In this document: piece by piece, positions 47,715-53,911 of the stretch
How positions within the stretch are numbered: the first letter of the stretch is position 1
How the letters are laid out: every line of letters begins with the position of its first letter
Origin: an uncultured Acidimicrobiia bacterium
GTDB taxonomy: Bacteria; Actinomycetota; Acidimicrobiia; Spongiisociales; ZC4RG35
Length of the DNA stretch: 64,000 bases
Assembly: GCA_963761985.1 (NCBI GenBank)
Contig: CAVXIT010000003.1
Coordinates: 55,237 to 119,236 of the forward strand
Reading direction: 5' to 3'
Notes under the pieces: generated by a model
The model's database searches: none
What the model saw: only the letters and a program-made list of their open reading frames with translations
Told to the model about the DNA's origin: nothing
Program-made: the position numbers and the translations under genes

Positions 47715-47860
47715 TGGATGCCGACGAAGGAGGCAGACGAGGTGGGGCCGCGTCCGACGGGCAAGAAAACGCTCCCCACCCCTCGCTGCGCTCGGGTACT
47801 CCCCCCTCCGGGGAAAACCTCTGTCAGGTTTCTGTCGACCCTACCTTTAACCTCGGTGGG

Positions 47861-49552
47861 GTGGATGCAGATGGGATTCTCGGGTCCCCGGTCGGGCGCG
47901 TAATAGGGACCGAAGATGCCACCCCGCTCGAATTCTGGGTAGGGGTGGCTCCCGATCGTTTCCTCCAACTCGACGATGTCGTCGCCCTAAGCCGCCCCCT
48001 CCCGGGCGGCGAAGTGGTCCATATCTACGGCATCGTGGCCCAGGTGAGGGCTCGCTATGAAGGAGCCAATTTCGATTCCGACGTCTTCCTCATCGAAGCA
48101 GGCCTCCTGCCGGCCGAGGTTTTCGAAACCGCCCAGGTGACGACGACTCGTTTCGAACCGGAAGTCTTCGTACCCCCGCGCCCGGGTCAAGAAGTGGTCG
48201 TCGCCAGTGGCCCGGATCGTGATCGCGCCCTTTTCTTCGACCGGATGACCGAACGTCTGCCGGTCGGTCTCTCGCGCAACGGCGAGCCTCTTTTTGTAAA
48301 CCTGGAATTTCTCGATGGGCGCCGGGGAGCCCACGTCAACATCTCCGGGATCAGCGGCGTCGCCACCAAGACCACCTACGCCACGTTCCTCCTTCATTCG
48401 TTATACAACTCCGGCGTCCTCGGCAACCGCAGCGTCAACACCAAGGCGCTGATCTTCAATGTCAAGGGCGAGGACCTGCTCTTTCTGGACAAGCCCAACA
48501 TGGAGCTGGTCGACGAGCAGGCGGCGTTGTACGGCCGGCTCGGCCTGCCAGCCGAACCCTTCCGCTCGTTTCAGATCTTTGCCCCGCCGCGCCGGACCGG
48601 GGGTGTGGTGACACCTGACGTGGCGAGCCGGGTCAAGGGCGTGACTCCGTTCTTTTGGACGATCGAGGAGTTCTGCCTCGAGGACCTCTTGCCCTTCCTG
48701 TTCGTCGAGTCGGAGGACGAGCGGGCGCAGTACACGATGGTCGTCTACAACGTGATGGCCCAGCTGCGGAAGGCCAAGCCCATAGGCGAGGGTGCGGTCA
48801 GGATTGCCGAAAGGGACATCCGCACCTTCCGCGAATTGGTCGATCTCATCACCGCCAAGGTCCAGAGCGAGGACGAGCGCTACGAGTGGGCCGGGCCCGC
48901 GATCGGCGCCGGCACGATCAATGCCTTCGTTCGTCGACTGTTTGGGGCCATCCGTCACGTAGAGCCATTGATCCGCGGCGATCAGAGCACACCAGAAAAG
49001 AACCGCATCGAGCTCGATCATCAAGTAACTGTGGTCGACATCCACAATCTCCACGACCGGGCCAAGCGATTCGTCGTTGGGGTCACGATCCGTAAGGCCT
49101 TCGACGAAAAGGAACGCGCCGGGCAGTCGAACGAGCTTCTGTTTCTCGTGCTCGACGAGCTCAACAAATATGCCCCGCGCGAAGGTACGAGCCCGATCAA
49201 GGAGATTCTGCTCGACGTTGCCGAACGCGGCCGCAGCCTCGGAGTCATCCTGATCGGCGCGCAGCAAACCGCGAGCGAAGTGGAGCGCCGGATCATCGCC
49301 AACAGTGCAATCCGCGTCGTGGGCCGCCTCGATCCCGCGGAAGCCGCCCGCGAGGAGTACGGCTTCTTGCCGGGCGTGCACCGCCAGCGAGCGACGATCA
49401 TCAAACCGGGGACAATGCTGCTGAGCCAGCCTGAGTTGCCGATTCCGCTTGTGCTCGAGTTCCCGTTCCCGGCCTGGGCGACGAGAGCCTCCGAAGCGGG
49501 CAAGGCCGCCGACGATCCCGACCTGGCCGATCCCTTCGCGGGCCTGGACTGA
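47861..49552 (+). CDS. herA: HerA/FtsK-superfamily hexameric ATPase-like protein (HerA-like)
   Basis: GTG 47861. N-terminal barrel-like 'VGRVIGTEDATPLEFWVGV...VHIYGIV'. Deviant P-loop 'HVNISGISGVATKTTYA'. Walker B 'LLFLVLDELNKYAP'. 'RSLGVILIGAQQTASEV' is the FtsK/HerA sensor region. Confidence 0.65.
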   Translation: MDADGILGSPVGRVIGTEDATPLEFWVGVAPDRFLQLDDVVALSRPLPGGEVVHIYGIVAQVRARYEGANFDSDVFLIEAGLLPAEVFETAQVTTTRFEPEVFVPPRPGQEVVVASGPDRDRALFFDRMTERLPVGLSRNGEPLFVNLEFLDGRRGAHVNISGISGVATKTTYATFLLHSLYNSGVLGNRSVNTKALIFNVKGEDLLFLDKPNMELVDEQAALYGRLGLPAEPFRSFQIFAPPRRTGGVVTPDVASRVKGVTPFFWTIEEFCLEDLLPFLFVESEDERAQYTMVVYNVMAQLRKAKPIGEGAVRIAERDIRTFRELVDLITAKVQSEDERYEWAGPAIGAGTINAFVRRLFGAIRHVEPLIRGDQSTPEKNRIELDHQVTVVDIHNLHDRAKRFVVGVTIRKAFDEKERAGQSNELLFLVLDELNKYAPREGTSPIKEILLDVAERGRSLGVILIGAQQTASEVERRIIANSAIRVVGRLDPAEAAREEYGFLPGVHRQRATIIKPGTMLLSQPELPIPLVLEFPFPAWATRASEAGKAADDPDLADPFAGLD

Positions 49553-53006: not shown

Positions 53007-53911
53007 AATTCTCGGTGCAGGCGTGGGCCGCCGAGTACGGACCGACCGCAGGTCTCGAACTAGCTGAGGGCGAGAGCATCGATGCCTCGGTCGAACTCGC
53101 AGAAGGCGAGTGGCGTCCGCTTGGGGTAAGGGCCGAGCCGGCGCCCGAAGCCCTGTTCGTCGATGGGGTCAGACGCGTCGACGCCAACCTGTGGATCGAA
53201 GGTCCTGATGGTGTTGCTGTCCTCGCGCTGGCCGCGAGCTATGCCGCGGGCGCGGTCTTGAGTAATCACAAGGCGGTGGTAGTCGGCGAGGAGGTGCGGA
53301 GAGGGATTTTCACCTCCGCGGCTAACGCGGAATCGGTGGCGACGCCCTATGGCCCTTATCAGGTCCATCTATCGGAAGGAGAGCTGGCGGAGACCCTGTG
53401 GCTCAGTCTCCAGGGTCAGATGTCCGTGCTTGAGGGATTGGTGGCAGCCGCTCATGCCGATGCCCCTCTGATAATCGTCGACGGACCTCTTTCGCATCGA
53501 CGTCATGTTCCGGGAGCAGTCGGCTATATCAAGACCCAACACGTTCACTATCTCCCCGAGAAACTGCGACCGATCCTGGGCGCCCTCGGGGCAGGCGAGC
53601 GCACTCCGATTTTTCTTATCGGTGGGGGAGCCTGGAATCGGCTCTCGTGGTACGCCAAGCTTCCCCTCAAGTCGTCGGGCGGCGTCGATGGGCTGATACG
53701 CGCCGAGGTGGCCGCGGGTGACGTCGTGTCCGCTCGCCGCGTTGCCGACGTCATGACAGCCACGATCGTTCGCTTCGCCTCAGCGGCGCACAAAGACCCG
53801 CGCGCTCCGCAAAACCTCTATCCGATCGGTGGGCTCGAACGGCGCCTTCGCCATCGACTCGGGAATCGGGATCTGCTGGTGCGGGGCCTGCGCCGGCTCG
53901 CTGCTAGTTAA
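53003..53911 (+). CDS. nurA: NurA-like nuclease candidate
   Basis: ATGA overlap with sbcC. Motifs typical of NurA (RNase H-like fold): 'ALFVDGVRRVDANLW' and 'APLIIVDGPLSHRRH', then 'GYIKTQH' and 'LSWYAKLP'. The call rests on motifs and context only. Confidence 0.5.
   Translation: MKFSVQAWAAEYGPTAGLELAEGESIDASVELAEGEWRPLGVRAEPAPEALFVDGVRRVDANLWIEGPDGVAVLALAASYAAGAVLSNHKAVVVGEEVRRGIFTSAANAESVATPYGPYQVHLSEGELAETLWLSLQGQMSVLEGLVAAAHADAPLIIVDGPLSHRRHVPGAVGYIKTQHVHYLPEKLRPILGALGAGERTPIFLIGGGAWNRLSWYAKLPLKSSGGVDGLIRAEVAAGDVVSARRVADVMTATIVRFASAAHKDPRAPQNLYPIGGLERRLRHRLGNRDLLVRGLRRLAAS

What the first reader, a model, noticed from the sequence alone, without database searches (positions are those of the whole stretch)
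47833..53911. herA - mre11/sbcD - rad50/sbcC - nurA-like operon: archaeal-style end-resection gene set in a bacterial chromosome
SEEN: four plus-strand ORFs are packed for translational coupling, with a 5-nt gap at 49552/49558 and ATGA overlaps at 50679/50682 and 53003/53006. Gene 1 has an N-terminal barrel-like segment ('VGRVIGTEDATPLEFWVGV'), Walker B 'LLFLVLDELNKY' and 'GVILIGAQQTASEV', which fits the HerA/FtsK superfamily. Its P-loop is deviant: 'GISGVATKTT', with Thr where the invariant Gly before Lys-Thr should be. Gene 2 has all the Mre11/SbcD phosphoesterase motifs. Gene 3 is a short Rad50/SbcC (775 aa) with Walker A, a central CPVC zinc hook, a signature motif and Walker B. Gene 4 (302 aa) has the two Asp motifs 'FVDGV' and 'IIVDGPL' expected of NurA. 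ESTABLISHED: herA-mre11-rad50-nurA is the hallmark DSB end-resection operon of (thermophilic) archaea. In bacteria, HerA-NurA pairs are known mainly from Deinococcus-Thermus, SbcCD normally stands alone, and actinobacterial resection is usually attributed to AdnAB/RecBCD. HerA-like ATPases are also effectors in anti-phage systems (Sir2-HerA, DUF4297-HerA). INFERENCE: this is either a complete archaeal-type resection machine in an actinobacterial-type genome or a four-component nuclease/ATPase system of unknown role. The divergent P-loop and the compact Rad50 suggest a distinct lineage. Upstream, 'TGTCGacc-N7-TAACCT' (47833..47853) resembles the mycobacterial RecA-independent DNA-damage promoter motif as I remember it (tTGTCRgtg-N8-TAnnnT). 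It is one nt off in spacing, and the -10 lies 8 nt before GTG 47861, which would make the mRNA leaderless.
Basis: partly seen in the sequence, partly recalled or inferred. Interest (0 to 1): 0.8.

Follow-up and report, generated by a model that had tools for sequence, protein, structure and literature searches.

The report
Bacterial HerA–SbcCD–NurA DNA-repair operon
This is a real four-gene operon for processing broken DNA ends, made of bacterial-type (not archaeal) HerA, SbcD, SbcC and NurA; the same cluster is conserved in many bacterial genomes, is poorly annotated there, and in actinobacterial relatives sits behind a DNA-damage (PafBC-type) promoter.

Summary
There are four co-oriented ORFs: herA 47861-49552, sbcD 49558-50682, sbcC 50679-53006 and nurA 53003-53911. 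They have a 5-nt gap and two ATGA overlaps, and every quoted motif is present.

The interpretation needs correcting.
- Gene 1 is a close relative of Deinococcus radiodurans HerA (PDB 7F6D, E 1e-149). That protein has the same "deviant" P-loop GISGVATKT, so the P-loop is a family trait, not a new lineage.
- Gene 4 is a bacterial-type NurA (DrNurA E 7e-19; AF2 model to DrNurA, TM 0.69).
- Genes 2 and 3 score as bacterial SbcD/SbcC, not archaeal Mre11/Rad50.

Among 81 species-level loci carrying this HerA, 59 have all four genes in this order (47 tightly linked). Most of the rest are cut by contig ends. They come from Acidimicrobiia, other Actinomycetota, Gammaproteobacteria, Gemmatimonadota, Chloroflexota and Bacteroidota.

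The promoter guess gained support. GTC-N12-TAnnnT, the PafBC consensus, lies upstream of herA in 40 of 81 loci (0.36 expected). A start codon usually follows 7-8 nt later, which implies a leaderless mRNA. Where the operon is split, sbcD has its own copy in 8 of 11 loci. The window's own site has N11.

Verdict: an ordinary member of a widespread, uncharacterised bacterial operon, most likely a damage-induced end-resection machine.

The parts
47833..47853 (+). PafBC/RecA-NDp-like promoter: -26 element TGTC (47833-47836) and -10 hexamer TAACCT (47848-47853). GTC-to-TA spacing is 11 nt here, against 12 nt in the consensus and in the orthologous loci.
   Evidence: Sequence read. GTC-N12-TAnnnT occurs upstream of herA in 40/81 orthologous loci against 0.36 expected. 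Consensus tGTCgg(N10)tA(N3)T is from PMC8635444. The sister strain has CGTC and N13.
47861..49552 (+). herA: bacterial (Deinococcus-type) HerA ring ATPase/translocase, 563 aa. GTG start lies 7 nt after the -10 hexamer, so the mRNA is probably leaderless.
   Evidence: PDB 7f6d_B E 1e-149 over residues 9-547. Family profile 1.4e-215. Walker A K170/T171, D205 and Walker B D432/E433 are invariant or nearly so in a 25-sequence family alignment. Start codon supported.
49558..50682 (+). sbcD: Mre11-family nuclease subunit, 374 aa
   Evidence: TIGR00619 169.5 bits (cutoff 77.65) and Metallophos 3.8e-15. All phosphoesterase motifs present.
50679..53006 (+). sbcC: Rad50-family ATPase with short coiled coil and CPVC zinc hook, 775 aa
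   Evidence: AAA_23 3.8e-23, SbcC_Walker_B 4.3e-11, TIGR00618 291 bits (below its 478.5 cutoff). Motif positions. CxxC hook present in 47/51 orthologues.
53003..53911 (+). nurA: bacterial-type NurA nuclease (RNase H-like fold), 302 aa
   Evidence: 7f6d_H E 7e-19 and TM1739 2e-4. Ortholog profile 6.6e-46. AF2 model pLDDT 83.9; Foldseek top hits DrNurA (E 8.6e-19, TM 0.69) and TM1739. D54, E144, D160 and the RAPQNL motif are invariant across phyla.
47698..47714 (+). GC-rich hairpin CTCCCCC-GAA-GGGGGAG, 15 nt after the stop of the upstream GSDH gene. Probably that gene's terminator, which would mark the 5' boundary of the operon's transcription unit.
   Evidence: Fold of 47684-47725: -18.6 kcal/mol, z -1.95. 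Identical in the sister strain. No T-tract, so it was not called by the terminator scan.

Best explanation
This is a chromosomal, vertically maintained operon, herA-sbcD-sbcC-nurA, in an Acidimicrobiia (Actinomycetota) genome. It encodes a two-module machine for processing double-strand-break ends.

Proposed mechanism:
1. DNA damage produces ssDNA, which activates the WYL-domain regulator PafBC.
2. PafBC adapts RNAP-SigA to a hybrid promoter (-26 GTC element plus -10 TAnnnT) just upstream of herA.
3. This gives a leaderless polycistronic mRNA, and the four cistrons are translationally coupled.
4. SbcCD (Mre11-Rad50 homologue with a zinc hook) recognises, tethers and opens blocked or hairpin ends.
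5. A HerA hexamer then pushes duplex DNA through its pore into a NurA dimer, which splits the strands and degrades the 5' strand. The 3' tail that remains is used by RecA. This step follows what was shown for the D. radiodurans NurA-HerA complex.

Shown here:
- Family identities and intact catalytic motifs.
- Conserved gene order across about 60 species-level genomes.
- A conserved PafBC-type leaderless promoter in actinobacterial orthologues.

Inferred:
- Co-transcription.
- Damage induction in this organism.
- Physical or functional coupling of SbcCD with HerA-NurA.
- Resection as the physiological role.
For: Identities:
- HerA E 1e-149 to DrHerA with identical Walker A.
- NurA to the DrNurA structure by sequence, by profile and by fold.
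- SbcD above the TIGR00619 cutoff, and SbcC with every ABC/Rad50 motif plus the zinc hook.

Coupling:
- 5-nt gap and two ATGA overlaps.
- Of 81 independent loci, 47 are tight four-gene clusters and 12 more have an insert only between herA and sbcD. Most of the remainder are contig ends.
- A more distant HerA (46% identity) lies in an sbcC-nurA-herA arrangement, so linkage survives rearrangement.

Regulation:
- GTC-N12-TAnnnT upstream of herA in 40/81 loci against 0.36 expected, while spacings N9-N11 and N13-N16 stay at background with 0-3 loci.
- An in-frame start codon lies 5-9 nt after the -10 (mostly 7-8) in about 30 of 42 motif loci.
- In 8 of 11 split loci sbcD has its own copy, 6-8 nt before its start codon.
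- 39 of the 40 motif loci are not labelled as another phylum; only 1 of the 11 loci labelled as other phyla (L041) has it.
- The motif equals the in vivo PafBC consensus tGTCgg(N10)tA(N3)T (PMC8635444).
- The only canonical N12 site in the 64-kb window lies 7 nt before the start of a PD-(D/E)XK nuclease gene.

Context:
- Housekeeping neighbours (GSDH, MFS, MaoC, gpsA, ychF, gcvP), partly shared with a 73%-identity relative.
- GC is uniform at 0.58-0.65.
- Almost absent from plasmids (6 of 72,556 records, one of them really a chromosome) and from phages.

Biochemistry of the homologue: DrNurA-HerA resects the 5' strand in an ATP-dependent manner (PMC9960219).
Against: - The window's own promoter has 11 nt, not 12, between GTC and TA. 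The 99%-identical sister strain has CGTC and 13 nt. This strain's site may therefore be weakened, or one or both assemblies may carry a homopolymer error in the C-run.
- Within the window the string is not above chance.
- No pafBC gene could be looked for, because only 64 kb is available.
- There is no transcript, induction or protein-interaction data.
- Genetics of bacterial HerA/NurA is equivocal. D. radiodurans mutants show reduced recombination and growth but near-normal radioresistance (as summarised in PMC5448004). A T. thermophilus paper is titled as reporting UV resistance on inactivation of nurA and herA (reference list of PMC8708640).
- Non-actinobacterial carriers mostly lack the PafBC motif, so regulation there is unknown.
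- SbcC falls below the NCBIfam SbcC cutoff, and Pfam does not recognise HerA, or NurA at threshold.
Confidence: 0.65

Rival explanations
1. An anti-phage or anti-plasmid defence system. A HerA-family ATPase with nuclease partners would degrade invading linear DNA, as in Sir2-HerA, DUF4297-HerA, TdpAB or SMC-like systems such as Lamassu and Wadjet.
For: - Partial PADLOC hits: the HerA C-terminus to mad8 (3.8e-9) and to HerA models (5e-7); SbcC to mad3 (1e-25) and LmuB (8e-23).
- The NurA model weakly resembles TdpB of TdpAB (Foldseek E 2e-3).
- In the Streptomyces sp. BB1-1-1 linear plasmid the cluster lies next to TIGR02678/TIGR02680/DUF2397 genes (Wadjet-like, from my own knowledge) and an ImmA/IrrE gene.
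- HerA is 65-69% identical between phyla, which is compatible with horizontal transfer.
Against: - The PADLOC matches cover only generic P-loop/SMC segments, and NurA and SbcD get no meaningful defence hits.
- The family profile hits defence HerAs at about 1e-8 against 1e-215 for DrHerA.
- Flanking genes are housekeeping and partly syntenic among relatives.
- GC is uniform.
- The cluster is near-absent from plasmids and phages.
- A DNA-damage-type promoter is conserved on both halves of split operons.
- There is no Sir2, DUF4297 or methylase partner.
Confidence: 0.1
2. The two modules are co-regulated but act independently. SbcCD would do its usual hairpin and blocked-end cleavage. HerA-NurA would serve another DNA transaction, such as stimulating RecJ, processing DNA during cell-to-cell transfer or uptake, or degrading damaged DNA, rather than forming one concerted resection pathway.
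For: - DrHerA interacts with and stimulates RecJ (PMC4663267; PMC8708640).
- In Thermus, HepA and a second NurA-like protein affect transjugation (PMC5448004).
- In Deinococcus and Thermus, nurA-herA is not linked to sbcCD.
- In 12 loci herA is separated from sbcD-sbcC-nurA by 0.6-4.4 kb.
Against: - nurA stays attached to sbcC, not to herA, in every split locus. The nuclease partner of HerA is therefore embedded in the SbcCD unit, which is hard to explain without functional coupling.
- Linkage persists in a different gene order.
- Both halves keep the same promoter type.
- In archaea Mre11 physically binds HerA (PMC2288612).
Confidence: 0.2
3. A recently acquired archaeal herA-mre11-rad50-nurA operon, i.e. 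horizontal transfer from thermophilic archaea. This is the literal reading of 'archaeal-style'.
For: The gene order is the same as in the archaeal operon. The Thermus literature speaks of an archaeal origin for bacterial HerA (PMC5448004).
Against: - SbcD scores 169.5 bits on the bacterial TIGR00619 model against 47 bits or less on archaeal Mre11 models.
- SbcC scores 291 bits on the bacterial model against 104 bits or less on archaeal Rad50 models.
- The HerA profile reaches Sulfolobus HerA only at E 2.5e-4.
- The NurA profile finds no archaeal NurA structure.
- GC matches the host.
- The cluster is conserved with local synteny across Acidimicrobiia.
Confidence: 0.03

Closest known systems
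Deinococcus radiodurans NurA-HerA complex (PDB 7F6D/7WRW; PMC9960219)
   Same: - HerA aligns over its full length at E 1e-149 with extensive identity.
- The Walker A GISGVATKT is identical, and Walker B and the catalytic acidic residue are conserved.
- NurA is homologous by sequence (7e-19; profile 6.6e-46) and by fold (TM 0.69).
- The expected mechanism is therefore a HerA hexamer feeding dsDNA into a NurA dimer.
   Different: - In Deinococcus, nurA and herA are adjacent and deleted and complemented as one operon, and are not clustered with the Mre11/Rad50 homologues. Here sbcD and sbcC lie between herA and nurA.
- This NurA is shorter (302 against 369 aa).
- Regulation here is probably PafBC-type, which is specific to actinobacteria.
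Archaeal herA-mre11-rad50-nurA operon (Sulfolobus, Pyrococcus)
   Same: Same four functional roles, same gene order, tight operon, and damage-inducible expression in archaea (UV co-induction cited in PMC8708640).
   Different: The proteins are only remotely related. Sso HerA is reached at E 2.5e-4 by profile, archaeal NurA is not detected, and SbcCD is of bacterial type. HerA has the GxSGxATKT P-loop. Any shared ancestry of the operon is therefore not recent.
Oceanithermus profundus nurA-hepA-sbcD-sbcC neighbourhood (noted in PMC5448004)
   Same: A bacterial-type HerA/NurA genomically linked to bacterial SbcCD, read by those authors as an archaeal-like DSB repair architecture.
   Different: The gene order differs (sbcD and sbcC downstream of hepA there; herA-sbcD-sbcC-nurA here), and so does the phylum. 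It is a passing remark with no survey, no regulation data and no experiments.
Escherichia coli / Bacillus SbcCD
   Same: SbcD is above the TIGR00619 cutoff. SbcC has the Walker A, Q-loop, zinc hook, signature, Walker B and H-loop motifs.
   Different: - SbcC has 775 aa, against roughly 1040-1130 positions in the bacterial SbcC models (TIGR00618, E. coli and Bacillus equivalogs), and scores below the TIGR00618 cutoff.
- It is embedded between herA and nurA rather than standing alone.
Mycobacterial PafBC (RecA-NDp) promoters, e.g. recA P1
   Same: Bipartite -26 GTC element plus -10 TAnnnT with fixed spacing and no -35. The orthologous loci match tGTCgg(N10)tA(N3)T exactly in spacing.
   Different: - The window's own copy has spacing 11.
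- The base after GTC is mostly A, sometimes G or C (often GTCAC), rather than the GG of the mycobacterial consensus.
- herA, sbcDC and nurA do not appear in the PafBC papers I read, and no held paper combines PafBC with NurA or with the HerA/NurA pair.
Defence-associated HerA systems (Sir2-HerA, DUF4297-HerA, TdpAB)
   Same: HerA-superfamily ATPase paired with a nuclease. There is weak similarity at profile and fold level.
   Different: Matches are about 200 orders of magnitude weaker than to DrHerA. Partner domains are absent, and the context is housekeeping rather than a defence island.

Membership tests
HerA (FtsK-HerA superfamily), bacterial Deinococcus-type clade | Full-length architecture: N-terminal HAS-barrel, RecA-like ATPase core and inserted helical bundle | tested here: met
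   Residues 9-547 align to residues 13-602 of DrHerA chain 7f6d_B, E 1e-149. Family profile E 1.4e-215.
HerA (FtsK-HerA superfamily), bacterial Deinococcus-type clade | Catalytic residues: Walker A Lys/Thr, acidic residue after beta2, Walker B Asp-Glu | tested here: met
   K170, T171, D432 and E433 are invariant and D205 nearly invariant in a 25-sequence alignment at 33-58% identity. They correspond to DrHerA K175/T176, D220 and D487/E488 (PMC9960219).
HerA (FtsK-HerA superfamily), bacterial Deinococcus-type clade | Recognised by curated HerA/DUF87 models | tested here: not met
   No Pfam family at E<=0.01, and NCBIfam gives only E 0.05 to an anti-phage HerA model. The curated models do not cover this clade, which explains the 'ATP-binding protein' annotations.
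HerA (FtsK-HerA superfamily), bacterial Deinococcus-type clade | Hexameric ring that translocates dsDNA; ATPase stimulated by NurA and DNA | not testable with these tools
   Needs biochemistry or structure; inferred from DrHerA.
NurA nuclease | RNase H-like fold of the NurA type | tested here: met
   AF2 model pLDDT 83.9, pTM 0.81. Foldseek: DrNurA 7f6d_G E 8.6e-19 TM 0.69, TM1739 E 1.3e-13, then RNase H-fold proteins.
NurA nuclease | Conserved acidic catalytic residues | tested here: met
   D54 (FVDGV), E144, D160 (VDGP) and R267-P269-Q270-N271 are invariant in 17 orthologues from 6 phyla. Both Asp motifs align to DrNurA. Catalytic roles are inferred, not assayed.
NurA nuclease | Pfam PF09376 above gathering score | tested here: not met
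   13.4 bits against a cutoff of 21 for the window protein. 10 of 17 orthologues match at E<=0.01.
SbcD / Mre11 | Calcineurin-like phosphoesterase with the conserved phosphoesterase motifs; curated SbcD model | tested here: met
   TIGR00619 169.5 bits (cutoff 77.65); Metallophos 57.3 bits. Motifs DWH, GDVFD, GNHD, GHLMVHG and GHLH present.
SbcC / Rad50 | Split ABC ATPase head (Walker A, Q-loop, signature, Walker B, H-loop) with a central CxxC zinc hook | tested here: met
   All motifs located. AAA_23 and SbcC_Walker_B are above their cutoffs. CxxC is conserved in 47/51 orthologues.
SbcC / Rad50 | NCBIfam SbcC subfamily cutoff | tested here: not met
   TIGR00618 291.1 bits against a cutoff of 478.5. 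This fits the short coiled coil (775 aa).
Archaeal herA-mre11-rad50-nurA operon (as orthologous unit) | Same gene content and order | tested here: met
   The archaeal order is recalled from Constantinesco et al. 2004, which I could not read here.
Archaeal herA-mre11-rad50-nurA operon (as orthologous unit) | Proteins closest to the archaeal orthologues | tested here: not met
   Bacterial models outscore archaeal ones 3-4 fold for SbcD and SbcC. Sso HerA is reached only at E 2.5e-4 by profile. No archaeal NurA structure is found.
PafBC / RecA-NDp promoter | GTC triplet at about -26 and a TAnnnT -10, with no -35 | tested here: met
   TGTC at 47833-47836 and TAACCT at 47848-47853. No sigma-70 -35/-10 promoter was called in the region.
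PafBC / RecA-NDp promoter | Fixed 12-nt spacing between GTC and TA (tGTCgg-N10-tA) | tested here: not met
   The window has 11 nt and the sister strain 13 nt. 40/81 orthologous loci have exactly 12.
PafBC / RecA-NDp promoter | PafBC encoded in the genome; PafBC-dependent induction on DNA damage | not testable with these tools
   Only 64 kb is available. PafBC is reported in almost every actinobacterial species (PMC8635444).
Defence HerA systems (Sir2-HerA, DUF4297-HerA) | Full-length match to a defence HerA model plus a Sir2 or DUF4297 effector next door | tested here: not met
   Only C-terminal partial PADLOC hits, best HerA model 5e-7. Neighbours are SbcD, SbcC and NurA, then housekeeping genes.

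The most novel reading that the evidence does not exclude
HerA-SbcCD-NurA is a single, co-evolving four-component end-resection machine. 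It would be a widespread bacterial counterpart of the archaeal Mre11-Rad50-HerA-NurA pathway. In Actinomycetota it would belong to the PafBC DNA-damage regulon and be expressed from leaderless transcripts. That would make it a major, so far overlooked DSB-resection route alongside, or in some Acidimicrobiia instead of, AdnAB and RecBCD.
Probability: 0.45. Interest if true: 0.6.

Novelty: new member of a known kind. Interest (0 to 1): 0.42.

Why it matters
How Mre11-Rad50 hands DNA ends to HerA-NurA is still unclear in archaea (PMC8708640). Whether SbcCD is connected to HerA-NurA in bacteria was explicitly left open (PMC4663267).

This survey shows that bacterial-type HerA and NurA are physically interleaved with SbcD and SbcC in dozens of species from at least six phyla. 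nurA stays attached to sbcC even when herA drifts away. In actinobacteria both halves carry PafBC-type leaderless promoters.

That gives a concrete, testable prediction of a damage-induced four-protein pathway. Cultured carriers exist for testing it: Nonomuraea, Micromonospora, Longispora and a Streptomyces plasmid.

It also exposes an annotation gap. Public records mostly name HerA 'ATP-binding protein' and NurA 'hypothetical protein', so the system is invisible to routine genome mining.

For this particular window, however, the locus is simply one ordinary copy of that operon.

Tried and rejected
- **Long ORF from GTG 47714 as the herA start.** Rejected. A 99.2% sister contig has frame-breaking indels there, and homologues and the gene call start at 47861.
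- **Promoter significance from the window alone.** One match against 1.35 expected, so uninformative. The sigma-70 scan found nothing and the terminator-like hits were all intragenic.
- **Pfam and NCBIfam for HerA and NurA.** Essentially blank. Identity came from PDB sequence search instead.
- **PADLOC.** Only generic ATPase-level hits.
- **Phage and plasmid collections.** 2 weak and 6 hits respectively, so no mobile-element signal.
- **Cheng et al. 2015 (PMC4438212) and Iyer et al. 2004 (PMC521647).** Neither is held. Prior mention of actinobacterial herA-sbcCD-nurA clusters in them cannot be excluded.
- **Literature searches.** Searches combining HerA/NurA with Actinobacteria, Streptomyces or PafBC found nothing on this cluster.
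- **Context of more distant HerA representatives.** One gave sbcC-nurA-herA. One was a lone herA among small genes of unknown function, one of them DUF5131. Not pursued.
- **adnAB, recBCD, pafBC or a second sbcCD in the genome.** Could not be checked, because only the window and 21.7 kb of the sister contig were available.
- **HerA structure prediction.** Not run, because a homologue matching at E 1e-149 has a solved structure.

Full report

Yes. The ORF list gives 47714..49552, 49558..50682, 50679..53006 and 53003..53911, all on the + strand. The junctions read as described:
- TGA at 49550-49552, then 'gccca', then ATG 49558.
- 'gtATGAga' at 50679-50682.
- 'gcATGAaa' at 53003-53006.

The first ORF opens at GTG 47714, but the true start is GTG 47861:
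- A 99.2%-identical sister contig (L001, ENA ERZ25039588 contig_28294, 2.23 Mb) carries indels at 47761, 47772, 47777, 47826, 47833 and 47838. These would break the frame if that stretch were coding.
- The public gene call starts at the equivalent of 47861.
- Similarity to D. radiodurans HerA begins at residue 9 counted from 47861.

**2. What are the four proteins?**

*Gene 1 (HerA).* Curated profile libraries nearly miss it. Pfam has no hit better than E 0.04, and NCBIfam only E 0.05 to an anti-phage HerA model. The PDB sequence search is decisive: E 1e-149 to chain 7f6d_B, HerA of Deinococcus radiodurans, aligned over residues 9-547.

In that protein K175 and T176 bind the nucleotide phosphate and Mg2+, and a K175 mutation impairs the ATPase (PMC9960219). 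I aligned 25 family members at 33-58% identity. G166, A168, K170 and T171 are invariant and T169 is nearly so. Walker B D432/E433 is invariant and the acidic residue D205 nearly so. The unusual P-loop is therefore the hallmark of the known bacterial HerA clade, not a sign of a new lineage.

A family profile scores DrHerA at 1.4e-215, defence-associated HerAs at about 1e-8, and Sulfolobus HerA (4d2i) at only 2.5e-4.

*Gene 4 (NurA).* It matches DrNurA (7f6d_H) at 7e-19 and the Thermotoga RNase H-like nuclease TM1739 at 2e-4. A profile of 17 orthologues raises these to 6.6e-46 and 2.3e-18. An AlphaFold2 model (pLDDT 83.9, pTM 0.81) retrieves DrNurA first (E 8.6e-19, TM 0.69), then TM1739, then TdpB and generic RNase H-fold proteins. 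D54, E144, D160 and the C-terminal RAPQNL motif are invariant across phyla. The window protein itself falls below the Pfam NurA threshold (13.4 against 21 bits), but 10 of 17 orthologues match at E<=0.01.

*Gene 2 (SbcD).* It passes the curated SbcD model: TIGR00619, 169.5 bits against a cutoff of 77.65.

*Gene 3 (SbcC).* It has every Rad50/SbcC motif, including a central CPVC hook. At 775 aa it scores below the TIGR00618 cutoff.

Both genes 2 and 3 score 3-4 times higher on bacterial SbcCD models than on archaeal Mre11/Rad50 models.

**3. Organism and context**

The closest HerA homologues are from Acidimicrobiia MAGs. Flanking genes are housekeeping: a glucose/sorbosone dehydrogenase, an MFS transporter, a pyridine-nucleotide disulphide oxidoreductase, a MaoC dehydratase, gpsA, ychF and gcvP. 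A relative with 73% HerA identity keeps GSDH upstream and ychF downstream. GC content is flat at 0.58-0.65. Nothing suggests an island or a mobile element. The HerA is found in 6 of 72,556 plasmid records, one of which is really the Nonomuraea chromosome, and in only 2 phage records at about 27% identity.

**4. How common is the cluster?**

I built a HerA alignment from 50%-clustered representatives and scanned one genome per GTDB species. More than 590 stretches encode a relative, and the best 80 were fetched. I located SbcD, SbcC and NurA in them by tblastn.

Of 81 independent loci:
- 47 are tight herA-sbcD-sbcC-nurA clusters.
- 12 have 0.6-4.4 kb inserted only between herA and sbcD.
- Most of the rest are cut by contig ends.
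- Only L010 has ample flanking DNA and no partner genes.

Carriers include Acidimicrobiia, Nitriliruptorales, Micromonosporaceae (Longispora albida DSM 44784, Micromonospora) and Gammaproteobacteria (a complete Azotimanducaceae chromosome). They also include Acidobacteriota, Gemmatimonadota (Longimicrobiales), Dehalococcoidia and Saprospiraceae. The Nonomuraea gerenzanensis chromosome and a Streptomyces linear plasmid carry it too.

A more distant HerA (46% identity) lies in an sbcC-nurA-herA arrangement. SbcC length across clusters ranges from about 760 to 1100 aa, and the CxxC hook is kept in 47 of 51. The "compact Rad50" is therefore one end of a continuum.

Annotation is poor. HerA is usually 'ATP-binding protein' or 'HerA-like ATPase'. 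NurA is usually 'hypothetical protein', and only occasionally 'DNA double-strand break repair nuclease NurA'.

**5. The promoter**

The published in vivo PafBC motif is tGTCgg(N10)tA(N3)T. That is GTC, 12 nt, then TAnnnT, read by PafB at -26 and by SigA at -10 (PMC8635444). Comparison with orthologues changes the picture.

- I scanned the 150 nt upstream of the conserved HerA N-terminus in each locus. GTC-N12-TAnnnT occurs in 40 of 81 loci, against 0.36 expected from the rest of the same loci. Spacings N9-N11 and N13-N16 occur in only 0-3 loci each.
- The sequence between the two elements is not conserved, so this is selection on the motif and not residual similarity.
- 39 of the 40 motif loci are not labelled as another phylum. 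Of the 11 loci labelled as other phyla, only L041 has the motif.
- In about 30 of 42 loci that carry the motif at N11-N13, an in-frame start codon follows the -10 hexamer by 5-9 nt, mostly 7 or 8. That is the geometry of a leaderless transcript.
- In 8 of the 11 split loci examined, sbcD has its own GTC-N12-TAnnnT, 6-8 nt before its start codon.

The operon therefore very probably belongs to the PafBC DNA-damage regulon in Actinomycetota.

The window's own site (TGTC-N11-TAACCT, then 7 nt, then GTG) is one base short. The sister strain has CGTC and N13. The two differ by two C's in a C-run. The sister contig has several frameshifted genes, so homopolymer error is plausible, but I cannot decide this.

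The only canonical N12 site in the whole 64-kb window (32493-32514, TGTCGG...TACGAT) lies 7 nt before the GTG of a PD-(D/E)XK nuclease gene. A putative recB-like exonuclease, rv2119, was over-expressed in a mitomycin-treated M. tuberculosis recA mutant (PMC8151990). I did not test whether the window gene is its orthologue. This fits the organism using PafBC-type promoters.

**6. Mechanism**

This section combines established knowledge with inference. DrNurA-HerA is a 6:2 complex. The HerA ring translocates duplex DNA into the NurA dimer, a pin-like motif splits the strands, and the 5' strand is degraded during translocation (PMC9960219). SbcCD/Mre11-Rad50 recognises and opens ends.

The interleaved gene order, the translational coupling, the persistence of nurA next to sbcC, and the shared promoter type together argue that the two modules act in one pathway. 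That pathway would be damage-induced long-range 5' resection that feeds RecA.

What I have not shown: co-transcription, induction, complex formation, and any phenotype. Bacterial genetics is equivocal, with mild phenotypes in Deinococcus and a Thermus report of UV resistance on inactivation. I hold this explanation at about 0.65.

**7. Rivals**

- *Defence system.* Only generic ATPase similarity and one plasmid context next to Wadjet-like genes support it. Context, conservation, promoter and the absence of effector partners argue against it. About 0.1.
- *Co-regulated but independent modules.* This cannot be excluded, at about 0.2. It explains the nurA-sbcC attachment poorly.
- *Recent archaeal transfer.* The model scores contradict it.

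**8. Comparison with what is known, and novelty**

Each protein belongs to a known family, and HerA and NurA belong to the structurally characterised Deinococcus clade. Linkage of bacterial HerA/NurA with SbcCD was noted in passing for Oceanithermus profundus (PMC5448004). Reviews state that NurA/HerA homologues occur in Actinobacteria, Cyanobacteria and Firmicutes but were studied only in D. radiodurans, where they are not clustered with the Mre11/Rad50 homologues (PMC8708640).

In the papers I could search, I found no description of the herA-sbcD-sbcC-nurA operon across phyla or of its PafBC-type promoters. Two key papers could not be read.

The window's locus is thus a new member of a known kind. 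The survey results, namely the breadth of the cluster and the promoter on both halves, are the part a specialist might find useful.

Noticed in passing
window 32493-32514 (+), gene 32522-33307 (+): This is the only canonical PafBC-type site in the window (TGTCGGCGGGTCAACGTACGAT, i.e. GTC-N12-TAnnnT). It ends 7 nt before the GTG start of a 261-aa PD-(D/E)XK nuclease (PF12705, 2.7e-15), so it looks like a second leaderless damage-response promoter. No NCBIfam name was found for the protein.
   Followed up: partly
window 32349-32492: The AT-richer intergenic region upstream of that nuclease gene holds repeated near-palindromic units: CCAAACTCAATTATTTGG, CTCAATTATTTGGACTCCAAATGATC and CCCAAACCGATCAAATTTGGGCTGATCAAATT. 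They look like operator sites for an unknown regulator.
   Followed up: no
L001 (ENA ERZ25039588 contig_28294) against window 37868-59548: The sister contig is 99.2% identical but has 31 gap openings. One is a 2-nt 'CA' insertion at window position 51606 that splits sbcC into 334- and 441-aa ORFs. The pyr-redox, ADH and gcvP genes are also frameshifted. These are either long-read assembly errors or real pseudogenes. Differences cluster in intergenic stretches at 42384-42538 and 47731-47850.
   Followed up: partly
window 42933-43949 (-): A 338-aa protein combines a staphylococcal-nuclease domain with a lamin-tail domain (SNase + LTD). This is probably a secreted or surface nuclease. The same gene neighbours the cluster in a related genome, L003.
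   Followed up: no
window 33178-35455 (+): Two adjacent dynamin-family/MMR_HSR1 GTPase genes (394 and 371 aa) lie just downstream of the PD-(D/E)XK nuclease gene. This may be a bacterial dynamin-like pair.
   Followed up: no
L086 (Streptomyces sp. BB1-1-1 linear plasmid NZ_CP134205.1, 413754-429376): Here the same four-gene cluster has a 1117-aa SbcC. It sits next to TIGR02680/TIGR02678/DUF2397 genes (Wadjet-like, from my own knowledge) and an ImmA/IrrE peptidase gene. No PafBC-type motif was found in the roughly 400 nt before herA.
   Followed up: partly
window 53921-54367 (+): A MaoC-like dehydratase gene starts 9 nt after the nurA stop on the same strand, so it may be read through from the operon. 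It is not conserved downstream of nurA in other loci, for example ychF follows in L003.
   Followed up: partly
NurA residues 8-13 (window 53024-53041): A conserved N-terminal W-x-P-E-Y-G motif is seen in all orthologues across phyla. It lies at about the same position as the 'pin-like' strand-splitting motif of DrNurA (residues 10-15 in PMC9960219). The equivalence was not verified because the DrNurA N-terminus was not aligned.
   Followed up: no
L085 (Logan SRR31984834_5422), herA at 5269-6930: A distant member of this HerA family (38% identity) stands alone among small genes of unknown function, one of them DUF5131. No SbcCD or NurA lies nearby, so this may be a different, possibly mobile-element, use of the ATPase.
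   Followed up: no
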